Source: a virus
Lineage: Duplodnaviria > Heunggongvirae > Uroviricota > Caudoviricetes
Virus record (IMG/VR): IMGVR_UViG_2531839178_000023
DNA: 15,696 nucleotides
Direction: 5' to 3' (one strand)
Position numbers: made by a program. Below, in pieces: positions 10,901-13,900 of the stretch. Each line of letters opens with the position of its first letter. The first letter of the stretch is position 1.

Positions 10901-13900
10901 TCAATTGGTCAACGCAACAGTTATGTGAAAACATGGGGTCGCGGAGGTTTTTTGAATGAGACGAACATTTACAGCAGAGGAAAAAGCCTCTGTTTTTGAA
11001 CTATGGAAGAACGGAACAGGCTTCAGTGAAATAGCGAATATCCTGGGTTCAAAACCCGGAACGATCTTCACTATGTTAAGGGATACTGGCGGCATAAAAC
11101 CCCATGAGCGTAAGCGGGCTGTAGCTCACCTGACACTGTCTGAGCGCGAGGAGATACGAGCTGGTTTGTCAGCCAAAATGAGCATTCGTGCGATAGCTAC
11201 TGCGCTGAATCGCAGTCCTTCGACGATCTCACGTGAAGTTCAGCGTAATCGGGGCAGACGCTATTACAAAGCTGTTGATGCTAATAACCGAGCCAACAGA
11301 ATGGCGAAAAGGCCGAAACCGTGCTTACTGGATCAAAATTTACCATTGCGAAAGCTTGTTCTGGAAAAGCTGGAGATGAAATGGTCTCCAGAGCAAATAT
11401 CAGGATGGTTAAGGCGAACAAAACCACGTCAAAAAACGCTGCGAATATCACCTGAGACAATTTATAAAACGCTGTACTTTCGTAGCCGTGAAGCGCTACA
11501 CCACCTGAATATACAGCATCTGCGACGGTCGCATAGCCTTCGCCATGGCAGGCGTCATACCCGCAAAGGCGAAAGAGGTACGATTAACATAGTGAACGGA
11601 ACACCAATTCACGAACGTTCCCGAAATATCGATAACAGACGCTCTCTGGGGCATTGGGAGGGCGATTTAGTCTCAGGTACAAAAAACTCTCATATAGCCA
11701 CACTTGTAGACCGAAAATCACGTTATACGATCATCCTTAGACTCAGGGGCAAAGATTCTGTCTCAGTAAATCAGGCTCTTACCGACAAATTCCTGAGTTT
11801 ACCGTCAGAACTCAGAAAATCACTGACATGGGACAGAGGAATGGAACTGGCCAGACATCTAGAATTTACTGTCAGCACCGGCGTTAAAGTTTACTTCTGC
11901 GATCCTCAGAGTCCTTGGCAGCGGGGAACAAATGAGAACACAAATGGGCTAATTCGGCAGTACTTTCCTAAAAAGACATGTCTTGCCCAATATACTCAAC
12001 ATGAACTAGATCTGGTTGCTGCTCAGCTAAACAACAGACCGAGAAAGACACTGAAGTTCAAAACACCGAAAGAGATAATTGAAAGGGGTGTTGCATTGAC
12101 AGATTGAATCTACAGTTGCTTTTTTTAATATATCTCGCTCAAGGCGAGCTTCATTTAACGCCTTACGCAGTTGCAGAATTTCAGATTCCAGTTCAGCCAC
12201 CGTGCGGGAACCAGGAGTACCGAGTCCTTTTCTGGCGGCGGTAACCCATTGTCCTAAAGTGCCTTCAGGAAGGGATAATCGGGAAGCGCCTTCACTGATC
12301 GAAAGTTGATTTTCAAGAACCGTTCTGACAGCTTCGGCTTTGAACTCTTTAGAGTAACGTTGGGTTTTTCTGCTCATTATTAGCTCCTTCTGATGCCATT
12401 CTATTTCAGGAAGGAGTGTCCGTTAAACTCAGGCTACCTCAAATTAATGGCTGGCAACGAGGAGGCGCAGGCTAAATGCGTTCAGGTAATGAACATAAGA
12501 GTTAACGAACTAAAACAGGCGGCATAAATGGCAAGCAGAGGCGTAAATAAGGTGATTATCCTTGGTCGGGTAGGACAAGACCCGGAAGTTCGATACTCAC
12601 CATCAGGAACAGCGTTCGCTAACCTGACAATAGCCACGTCAGAACAATGGCGAGATAAAAATACTGGCGAGCAAAAGGAATTGACTGAATGGCATCGTGT
12701 TGCTGTATCCGGGAAACTGGCTGAGGTCGTGGGGCAGTATGTAAAAAAAGGTGATCAGATTTATTTCGAGGGAATGCTGAGAACCAGAAAGTGGAAAGAC
12801 CAGTCAGGGCAAGACCGTTACACAACCGAGGTTCATGTCGGAATTAATGGCGTGATGCAAATGCTTGGCGGCATTGGCGACAGCAAACAACAAGCAGCCA
12901 GCAGGCAATCACAGAAGCCACAGCAGCAATCATCACCAGCACAACACAACGAACCTCCGATGGATTTTGACGACGATATACCCTTTGCACCAGTAACTCT
13001 CCCCTTCCCTCGTCACGCTATTCACGCAATTTAATCAGGAGAAAATCATGCCAGCGCCTCAGTATGGTGCGGATGACCCGCGCCGCTGTTCCGGCAATTC
13101 CGTATTGGAGGTGCTGGATAAATTCAGAAAAAACTACGACCGGATAATGTCGCTACCGCAGGAAACGAAAGAGGAAAAGGAATTTCGCCATTGCATATGG
13201 CTTGCAGAGAAAGAAGAACACGAGCGAATTTACCAGACATCAATCCGACCATTCCGCAAAGCCACATATACCCACTTCCCTGAAATTGACCCGCGCCTGC
13301 GTAATTACCGCTCACGCTATGGCGCTATCAGTAATGACTGAGGAATTAACCATGAGAGGACTTGCATACAATCCCGGCATTCTTCCGGCAGAAATGATTA
13401 TTCGCCAACGCGTAAAGCCAATGCCATCGAGAGAGGAATTGCTTAAGAGAAATTCTTTTCCATCAGTGAATCAAAACAAATATCTGAATGCGATGTGGCG
13501 GAGTGGGAAAAAATGAAACAAATGTCACTAATTGAGATGGATGGTTTTCTGAAAGGTAATAGATTTGCCCCTATATTTCCAGACATCTGTTATCACTTAA
13601 CCCATTACAAGCCCGCTGCCACAGATATTCCCGTGGCGAGCGATAACCCAGCGCACTATGCGGATGCCATTCGTTATAATGCTCGAACGCCTCTGCAAGG
13701 TTCTTTGCTGCCGTTAACCCGTCTGGTTTGGGCATGATACTGATGTAGTCACGCTTTATCGTTTTCACGAAGCTCTCTGCTATTCCGTTACTCTCCGGAC
13801 TCCGCACCGCCGTGTTCTTCGGTTCAAGTCCCAACATCCGGGCGAACTGGCGTGTTTCATTAGCCCGGTAGCATGAACCATTATCCGTCAGCCACTCCAC

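What the first reader, a model, noticed from the sequence alone, without database searches (positions are those of the whole stretch)
12442..12527. Orphan 3' gene tail fused to the IS end and ending on the ssb start codon
An open frame (...AGNEEAQAKCVQVMNIRVNELKQAA) runs from the IS boundary to a TAA that overlaps the ssb ATG (TAAATG). This looks like the last ~27 codons of the gene that originally preceded ssb, perhaps a recombination or early-operon gene, and it identifies what the deletion removed.
Basis: inference. Interest (0 to 1): 0.2.

Follow-up and report, generated by a model that had tools for sequence, protein, structure and literature searches.

The report
Leftover end of a phage recombinase gene
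The 86 bases are the dead last 27 codons of a phage DNA-annealing (Erf/Rad52-type) recombinase gene that an insertion-sequence-linked deletion cut off in a decayed prophage, which is an ordinary kind of genome debris.

Summary
Window 12442-12527 is an in-frame 27-codon tail plus TAA. It starts at the first base after an IS600 end (12441), and its TAA abuts the ssb ATG (TAA|ATG, no shared base, so not an overlap).

An open frame this short is not evidence, because about one third of 81-nt frames in the window are stop-free. The homology is decisive. The 86 nt match 85/86 to the 3' end of phage HK75 gene 32 and at least 99% to the same gene in 130 E. coli genome records. The peptide is 27/27 identical to the C-terminus of HK75 gp32 and Sf6 gp28. 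These are 235-aa ssDNA-annealing proteins (Pfam Rad52_Rad22 N-domain) that always sit directly upstream of ssb with the same TAAATG junction.

The tail is half of a ~55-aa C-terminal domain also found in P22 Erf. No other part of the gene is in the window.

The "IS" is a 2,464-bp chimera: IS911 right part, IS30, IS600 left part. Its other side abuts the 3' half of a P22 gp16-like DNA-transfer gene. On the Sf6 map about 29.6 kb (76%) is missing, from most of the recombinase gene through the immunity, replication, lysis and head genes.

This is an ordinary pseudogene remnant.

The parts
12442..12527 (+). 3' remnant of the phage ssDNA-annealing protein gene (Erf-like, Rad52_Rad22-type). It holds 2 nt of codon Q208, codons L209-A235 and the TAA stop. 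It is a pseudogene fragment covering the last 27 of 235 codons.
   Evidence: 85/86 nt identical to HK75 gene 32 and 84/86 to Sf6 gene 28. 27/27 aa identical. It hits positions 226-251 of 251 in phrog_1097, 'Erf-like ssDNA annealing protein'. tblastn finds no other part of the gene in the window.
12393..12527 (+). Mechanical 44-aa hybrid ORF (MPFYFRKECPLNSGYLK + the recombinase tail) made by the IS600 end reading into the remnant. It is probably not expressed.
   Evidence: By eye I see no Shine-Dalgarno-like sequence before ATG 12393 or ATG 12447 (sequence). There is no + strand promoter-like site in 11900-13100. This exact product is not on record in the gene-position index.
12115..12441 (-). 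Left 327 bp of IS600: the terminal inverted repeat and most of orfA (ORF 12027-12377, whose 3' end runs into IS30). This is the IS end that abuts the remnant.
   Evidence: 99.1-99.6% identical to annotated IS600 copies in E. coli, whose match ends at the same ...GGCTACCTCA. Pfam HTH_Tnp_1.
10894..12114 (+). Complete IS30 (1,221 bp, 26-nt inverted repeats, 383-aa transposase at 10956-12107), flanked by GT on both sides.
   Evidence: Annotated as IS30 in matching records.
9978..10893 (-). Right 916 bp of IS911 (orfB and the TGAAGTGG... terminal repeat). It is not IS600.
   Evidence: 99.9% identical to copies annotated 'IS3-like element IS911 family'. It does not match the orfB part of genuine IS600. 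Pfam rve.
9006..9977 (-). 3' 972 nt (323 codons plus stop) of a P22 gp16-like / Sf6 gene 13 DNA-transfer (injection) protein gene. This is the left endpoint of the deletion.
   Evidence: Window 8498-9977 is 92.4% identical to Sf6 (locus L004 10935-12414). Sf6 gene 13 is 1,998 nt, so the 5' 1,026 nt are missing.
12528..13034 (+). Intact phage ssb (168 aa). It has lost its upstream operon and the complete upstream coding sequence.
   Evidence: Pfam SSB E=1.6e-36. The region 12442-13040 is 99.5% identical to HK75.
13048..13341 (+). Intact abc2 (anti-RecBCD), the next gene of the same recombination module.
   Evidence: Pfam Anti-RecBCD_p2 E=2.8e-61. Same gene order as HK75, Sf6 and ES18.

Best explanation
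The segment is a non-functional 3' remnant of the prophage's ssDNA-annealing recombinase gene. That gene is the Erf-like, Rad52/Rad22-type SSAP that in intact P22-like and lambdoid phages is read from the early-left (pL) operon directly into ssb through a TAA|ATG junction. In this degraded Sf6/HK620-type prophage an IS600 end sits after the first base of codon 208 (its last two bases remain). Everything upstream of that point is gone: the Rad52-like annealing domain, half of the C-terminal domain, kil, cIII, N, the immunity, replication, lysis and head genes, and the 5' half of the gp16-like injection gene. Those steps are shown directly. The route to the deletion is inferred. The bridging element is a chimera: IS911 right part, IS30, IS600 left part. 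IS30 is found at the homologous position in genuine IS600 and in genuine IS911 elsewhere. The simplest route is therefore homologous recombination between two directly oriented IS30 copies, one inside an IS911 inserted in the injection gene and one inside an IS600 inserted in the recombinase gene, which deleted the roughly 30 kb between them. The remnant itself does nothing. At most it is translated as a junk peptide that ends next to the ssb start. The confidence given is for the identity of the remnant as a dead gene fragment; the IS30 x IS30 route alone I would put at about 0.55.
For: The tail is identical to homologues: 85/86 nt and 27/27 aa to HK75 gp32, and at least 99% nt in 130 E. coli records where the feature is a 708-nt 'Rad52/Rad22 family DNA repair protein' followed at +1 by ssb. 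A tblastn of the 27-mer hits 113 phage records, always at the C-terminal end of the erf-position gene, and it maps to the last 26 positions of phrog_1097. The full-length relatives carry Pfam Rad52_Rad22 at residues 4-136. No other piece of the gene is in the window. The boundary is sharp at 12441/12442, with HK75 having C where the IS has A. The opposite side of the IS block is a truncated Sf6 gene 13 homologue. The bases flanking the block (CTG and AAT) are not a target duplication. In the Sf6 record attP lies between xis and int, so the window's gene order is that of one prophage with an internal gap. Genuine IS600::IS30 occurs in 343 E. coli genomes, and IS911::IS30 occurs at the same site in over 100 plasmid records.
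Against: The recombination route is not shown. The same 2,464-bp chimera, with the same outer ends, is also in the IncF plasmid CP056609.1 with unrelated flanks. It could therefore have arrived ready-made and then caused an adjacent deletion. The two flanks could also come from two different prophages joined by IS recombination. The right flank is closest to HK75/mEp235 and the left flank to Sf6/HF4s, although lambdoid mosaicism explains this equally well. Only 27 codons remain, so the Rad52-type N-domain of the lost part is inferred from near-identical relatives, not observed. P22 Erf, which has a Pfam ERF N-domain, carries a related tail (18/27 identical).
Confidence: 0.95

Rival explanations
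1. The frame is open by chance and the sequence is non-coding spacer between the IS and ssb.
For: A 27-codon stop-free frame is expected in about a third of positions.
Against: The tail is 85/86 nt and 27/27 aa identical to the 3' end of an annotated 235-aa gene in many phages and prophages, in register and with the same stop/start junction.
Confidence: 0.01
2. The segment is a genuine small gene: a 26-aa product from ATG 12447 or a 44-aa product from ATG 12393. It would be kept because its translation delivers ribosomes to the abutting ssb ATG (translational coupling), or because half a C-terminal domain acts as a decoy peptide.
For: There are in-frame ATGs at 12393 and 12447. The zero-spacing TAA|ATG junction is the kind used for coupling in the intact operon. 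ssb and abc2 remain intact.
Against: By eye there is no Shine-Dalgarno-like sequence upstream of either ATG. No + strand promoter-like site lies between IS30 and ssb. ssb has its own AGG 8 nt upstream of its ATG (sequence). The junction was found in no other genome, viral or metagenome collection, and the hybrid product is not on record, so there is no sign of retention by selection. In every homologue the sequence is the end of a 235-aa or 205-aa protein.
Confidence: 0.03
3. The lost gene was a P22-type Erf (Pfam ERF N-domain) rather than a Rad52_Rad22-type SSAP. The tail alone cannot distinguish them, because both carry the same C-terminal domain.
For: P22 Erf shares the C-terminal ~55 residues, and 18/27 of the tail.
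Against: At the nucleotide level the tail is 68/86 to P22 erf but 84-85/86 to Sf6 and HK75. All the near-identical hits whose gene I checked or saw annotated are 708-nt Rad52_Rad22-type genes followed by ssb, whereas P22 erf is followed by abc1, not ssb.
Confidence: 0.04
4. There was no single internal deletion. The IS block joins two different prophages, or the chimera transposed in ready-made and produced an adjacent deletion, so the tail does not mark one end of a simple IS30 x IS30 recombination.
For: The same chimera with the same ends exists in plasmid CP056609.1 with unrelated flanks. The best relatives differ for the two flanks.
Against: The gene order int-gtr/acyltransferase-tailspike-gp16' ... 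erf'-ssb-abc2-ea is exactly that of one Sf6/HK620-type prophage with the middle missing. Both parental forms, IS600::IS30 and IS911::IS30, are common. This rival changes only the history, not the identity of the tail.
Confidence: 0.3

Closest known systems
HK75 gp32 / Sf6 gp28 / ES18 gp49 / mEp235 'Erf-like ssDNA annealing protein' (235 aa; Pfam PF04098 Rad52_Rad22; phrog_1097)
   Same: The last 27 residues are identical (27/27 to HK75 and Sf6). The tail is 84-85/86 nt identical. It has the same position directly upstream of ssb and the same TAA|ATG junction.
   Different: Only 27 of 235 codons remain. The Rad52-like annealing domain (residues 4-136) and the first half of the C-terminal domain are absent, and the upstream sequence is an IS600 end.
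Phage P22 Erf (205 aa; Pfam PF04404 ERF)
   Same: It shares a ~55-residue C-terminal domain. 18 of the 27 tail residues are identical, including the invariant KCVQVMNIR-NELKQ-A motif. From my own knowledge, not checked here: Poteete, Sauer and Hendrix (1983) described P22 Erf as an N-terminal ring-forming, DNA-binding domain plus a separate C-terminal domain needed in vivo.
   Different: The N-terminal domain belongs to a different Pfam family. The tail is only 68/86 nt identical. P22 erf is followed by abc1, not ssb.
IS-bounded deletions in decayed Shigella/E. coli prophages (IS600, IS911, IS30, IS2 and IS630 are typical of such genomes)
   Same: The gene fragment abuts an IS terminal repeat with no target-site duplication. 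Several IS elements lie in one prophage remnant, and a large internal part of the prophage is missing.
   Different: Nothing differs in kind. The only special detail is that the bridging element is an IS911/IS30/IS600 chimera, which also exists in an IncF plasmid.

Membership tests
Rad52/Rad22-type phage SSAP (HK75 gp32 / Sf6 gp28 type, phrog_1097) | C-terminal sequence matches the family's C-terminus in register | tested here: met
   27/27 aa to HK75 gp32 and Sf6 gp28. Hits phrog_1097 positions 226-251 of 251, E=3.5e-5.
Rad52/Rad22-type phage SSAP (HK75 gp32 / Sf6 gp28 type, phrog_1097) | N-terminal Rad52_Rad22 annealing domain (Pfam PF04098) present | tested here: not met
   Full-length relatives have it at residues 4-136. 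tblastn of HK75 gp32 against the window finds only residues 208-235. The segment is therefore a remnant of a member, not a functional member.
Rad52/Rad22-type phage SSAP (HK75 gp32 / Sf6 gp28 type, phrog_1097) | Lies directly upstream of phage ssb, followed by abc2, in the early-left recombination module | tested here: met
   Window order is tail-ssb-abc2, the same as HK75, Sf6, ES18 and E. coli prophages. The stop codon abuts the ssb ATG in all of them.
P22 Erf family (Pfam PF04404 ERF) | ERF N-terminal domain | not testable with these tools
   The N-terminal part is deleted. Nucleotide identity favours the Rad52_Rad22-type relatives (84-85/86) over P22 erf (68/86).
P22 Erf family (Pfam PF04404 ERF) | Shared Erf C-terminal domain | tested here: met
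   18/27 identical to the P22 Erf C-terminus. The alignment shows a shared domain of about 55 aa.
IS600 (IS3 family) | Terminal inverted repeat TGAGGTAGCCTGAG... at the boundary | tested here: met
   Window 12115-12441 is 99.1-99.6% identical to annotated IS600 copies, whose match ends at the same base.
IS600 (IS3 family) | Complete element with both IS600 ends, orfA-orfB and a 3-bp target duplication | tested here: not met
   Only the left 327 bp are IS600. The other arm is IS911, with IS30 between the two. The flanking triplets CTG and AAT differ.

The most novel reading that the evidence does not exclude
The remnant, or the 44-aa IS600-Erf hybrid ORF, is still translated and matters. It could feed ribosomes into the abutting ssb start so that the orphaned ssb-abc2 module stays expressed. 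Alternatively it could act as a half-domain decoy for whatever partner the shared Erf/Rad52-type C-terminal domain binds.
Probability: 0.03. Interest if true: 0.25.

Novelty: already known. Interest (0 to 1): 0.07.

Why it matters
It matters little beyond annotation. The tail should be labelled as a pseudogene fragment of the Erf-like/Rad52-type SSAP, not as a small ORF. Together with the truncated gp16-like gene it fixes both endpoints of the deletion that inactivated this prophage. That deletion removed the immunity, replication, lysis and head genes, while the O-antigen-modification region, the tailspike gene and the ssb-abc2 genes remain. It also gives a clean example of IS30 copies nested in two different IS3-family elements acting as portable homology for large deletions.

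Tried and rejected
1. I searched for the exact IS600/tail junction (30-mer) in genome contigs, viral contigs and metagenome contigs and found 0 hits each. A megablast of window 12117-12700 against 5,426 complete E. coli genomes found no place spanning the junction. The junction is therefore private to the source genome in these data, and I could not identify the source organism.

2. An exact-product look-up of the 44-aa hybrid ORF found nothing on record.

3. I first assumed that the whole block 9978-12441 was IS600 interrupted by IS30. The length came to 1,241 bp instead of the 1,264 bp I recalled for IS600. Local BLAST then showed the left arm is IS911, so I rejected that assumption.

4. I considered that int at 1-1158 next to the gtr genes meant a phage-form or tandem arrangement. 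I rejected this because the Sf6 record annotates the attP core between xis and int and calls it extremely similar to HK620 attP.

5. Pfam has no model for the C-terminal domain, and neither the tail nor the hybrid ORF hits any Pfam family.

6. The promoter scan of 11900-13100 found no + strand site, so I make no claim about expression of the tail or ssb.

7. The literature search found only general SSAP/SSB context and nothing specific on this C-terminal domain in the held library.

Full report
**1. The observation**

The + strand reads ...GGCTACCTCA (ending at 12441), then AATTAATGGCTGGCAAC...GCGGCA TAA (12525-12527), then ATG (12528-12530). In the frame whose codons start at 12444, the peptide is LMAGNEEAQAKCVQVMNIRVNELKQAA followed by a stop.

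- The next ORF, 12528-13034, is a 168-aa SSB (Pfam SSB, E=1.6e-36).
- The stop and start codons abut as TAA|ATG.
- The mechanical ORF list shows the frame stays open back into the IS. This gives a 44-aa hybrid ORF from an ATG at 12393.
- There is also an in-frame ATG at 12447.
- A 27-codon open frame alone means nothing. The uniform expectation is 0.27, and 32-37% of all 81-nt frames in this window are stop-free.

**2. What it is**

A megablast of 12442-13040 finds the whole stretch in phage and prophage records:

- It is 99.5% identical in phage HK75 and 99.0-99.2% identical in mEp235 and mEpX2.
- It is at least 99% identical in 130 complete E. coli genome records.
- In each listed hit the first 86 bases lie under a gene annotated "Erf-like ssDNA annealing protein" or "Rad52/Rad22 family DNA repair protein", and the rest lies under ssb.

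In HK75 that gene is 708 nt (235 aa) and ends one base before the ssb ATG. The same holds in an E. coli prophage, in Sf6 and in ES18.

The alignment shows identity starting exactly at 12442. HK75 reads ...GAC TGG CAA TTA ATG GCT..., while the window reads ...CCTCA|AA TTA ATG GCT. The window therefore keeps two bases of codon Q208 plus codons 209-235.

Measures of identity for the tail:

| Comparison | Result |
|---|---|
| Nucleotides vs HK75 | 85/86 |
| Nucleotides vs Sf6 | 84/86 |
| Nucleotides vs ES18 | 71/86 |
| Nucleotides vs P22 erf | 68/86 |
| Amino acids vs HK75 gp32 and Sf6 gp28 | 27/27 |

It returned 113 records. All 60 rows printed cover the tail essentially end to end. Every row that carries an informative annotation names the recombinase (erf-position) gene, and in the five phages I inspected the match is that gene's last 27 codons. 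The range runs from 100% identity (E about 6e-10) down to P22 Erf at 67%. The 27-mer also maps to the last 26 positions of phrog_1097, "Erf-like ssDNA annealing protein".

**3. Which recombinase**

The full-length relatives HK75 gp32, Sf6 gp28 and ES18 gp49 carry Pfam Rad52_Rad22 at residues 4-136. P22 Erf carries Pfam ERF at residues 5-146. All four nevertheless share a C-terminal domain of about 55 residues (LK-FS-YA-TETDKKKLIERYQ-DWQL...KCVQVMNIR-NELKQ-A).

The tail is the second half of that shared domain. Strictly, 27 codons cannot show which N-domain was lost. The near-identical nucleotide relatives that I checked or saw annotated are the Rad52_Rad22 type followed by ssb. P22 erf is followed by abc1. 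I therefore infer a Rad52_Rad22-type SSAP.

A tblastn of HK75 gp32 and P22 Erf against the window finds only residues 208-235 and 178-205 respectively. The rest of the gene is absent.

**4. The IS and the other side**

The block 9978-12441 is not one IS. It has three parts.

- **12115-12441:** the left end of IS600 (terminal repeat plus orfA). It is 99.1-99.6% identical to annotated IS600 copies, whose match ends at the same base.
- **10894-12114:** a complete IS30 of 1,221 bp with 26-nt inverted repeats and GT on both flanks.
- **9978-10893:** 99.9% identical to copies annotated as IS911-family. It does not match the orfB part of genuine IS600.

IS30 sits at the homologous point, just after the conserved ...TTAAAAAAAGCAAC frameshift region, in both parental elements:

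- Genuine IS600::IS30 occurs in 343 E. coli genomes, for example at a frameshifted porin gene in O104:H4.
- Genuine IS911::IS30 occurs in over 100 plasmid records, for example the E2348/69 plasmid.
- The same 2,464-bp chimera, with the same outer ends, is present in IncF plasmid CP056609.1 between unrelated sequences.

To the left of the block, window 9006-9977 (- strand) is the 3' 972 nt of a homologue of Sf6 gene 13, the P22 gp16-like DNA-transfer protein gene. It is 92.4% identical to Sf6, and the 5' 1,026 nt are missing. The triplets flanking the block, CTG and AAT, are not a target duplication.

**5. Context and size of the gap**

The window carries, in order:

- int (1-1158)
- gtrA
- a gtrB broken by an IS630-family element
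- a split DUF6056 gtr gene
- an acyltransferase gene
- a tailspike gene with the P22 head-binding domain (- strand)
- the truncated injection gene (- strand)
- the IS block
- the recombinase tail, ssb and abc2
- an IS2
- Ead/Ea22-like genes

The Sf6 record places the attP core between xis and int and notes that it is extremely similar to HK620 attP. This order is therefore what one integrated Sf6/HK620-type prophage would show with its middle removed.

On Sf6 coordinates the retained parts end at 12583 and 21996. The missing equivalent is 21997-39043 plus 1-12582, which is 29,629 of 39,043 bp. That stretch covers:

- most of the recombinase gene, kil, cIII and the genes around them (seen directly in the annotated part of Sf6)
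- the N, immunity, replication, lysis, terminase and head genes (placed there from the standard P22-like gene order, not from the part of the Sf6 record I fetched)
- the gp7- and gp20-like injection genes and half of the gp16-like gene

**6. How it most likely came about and what it does now**

The identity of the remnant and both deletion endpoints are shown directly. The route is inferred. The most likely one is recombination between two directly oriented IS30 copies. One copy would have been nested in an IS911 in the injection gene and the other in an IS600 in the recombinase gene. This leaves exactly the observed IS911-right / IS30 / IS600-left chimera.

Two alternatives are not excluded:

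- The ready-made chimera arrived and was followed by an adjacent deletion.
- IS recombination joined two different prophages.

As for present function, I see no evidence of any:

- No + strand promoter-like site lies between IS30 and ssb.
- By eye there is no Shine-Dalgarno-like sequence before either in-frame ATG.
- ssb has its own AGG 8 nt upstream of its start.
- The junction is absent from every collection searched.
- The hybrid product is not on record.

**7. Comparison with what is known, novelty and verdict**

This is a textbook pseudogene fragment at an IS-bounded deletion in a decaying prophage.

Two side observations are not novel in kind. One is the C-terminal domain shared between ERF-type and Rad52-type SSAPs. 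The other is IS30 nested at the same spot in two IS3-family elements.

Novelty: already known. Interest: about 0.07.

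Noticed in passing
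window 9978-12441: The IS block is a chimera: IS911 right part, complete IS30, IS600 left part. IS30 sits at the homologous site in genuine IS600 (343 E. coli genomes) and in genuine IS911 (over 100 plasmid records). The identical 2,464-bp chimera with the same ends occurs in IncF plasmid CP056609.1 with unrelated flanks. Either IS30 x IS30 recombination recurs or the chimera moves as a unit.
   Followed up: partly
L001 5379-6086, L004 2379-3086, L006 879-1586, L007 667-1284 (tail = window 12444-12524): A C-terminal domain of about 55 aa is shared by SSAPs with two different N-terminal Pfam domains: ERF in P22, and Rad52_Rad22 in HK75, Sf6 and ES18. No Pfam model covers it and its partner is unknown to me. 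The Sf6 tail is 84/86 nt identical to the window, yet the tail-plus-ssb stretch 12442-12873 is only 76.6% identical, so a mosaic joint probably lies near the gene boundary.
   Followed up: partly
window 1654-3743: gtrB (Glycos_transf_2) is split into 1654-1848 and 3048-3743 by an IS630-family element (about 1831-3003, 20-nt inverted repeats, truncated DDE_3 transposase ORF at 2150-2899 on the - strand).
   Followed up: partly
window 3740-5355: The DUF6056 glucosyltransferase gene (the serotype-specific gtr position) is broken into two ORFs, 3740-4228 (profile positions 5-159) and 4390-5355 (profile positions 227-438). It is probably a pseudogene.
   Followed up: no
window 5449-6522: An apparently intact 357-aa Acyl_transf_3 ORF sits in the position of Sf6 oac but has no nucleotide match to Sf6 oac. 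It may be a different O-antigen acyltransferase.
   Followed up: no
window 6820-8841 (-): A 673-aa tailspike has a P22-type head-binding domain (residues 1-113). Only about the first 115 codons match Sf6 at the nucleotide level, so the receptor-binding part is of a different type.
   Followed up: no
window ~13562-14890: An IS2 copy (99.6% identical to the IS2 in the SfX int-region record) is inserted downstream of abc2 and the DUF2737 gene in the ea region. It is the fifth IS type in this 15.7-kb window.
   Followed up: no
window 1-1158: The window begins exactly at the ATG of a 385-aa Sf6/HK620-type integrase gene (96% nt identity to Sf6 int). The attL side of the prophage is therefore just outside the window.
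   Followed up: no
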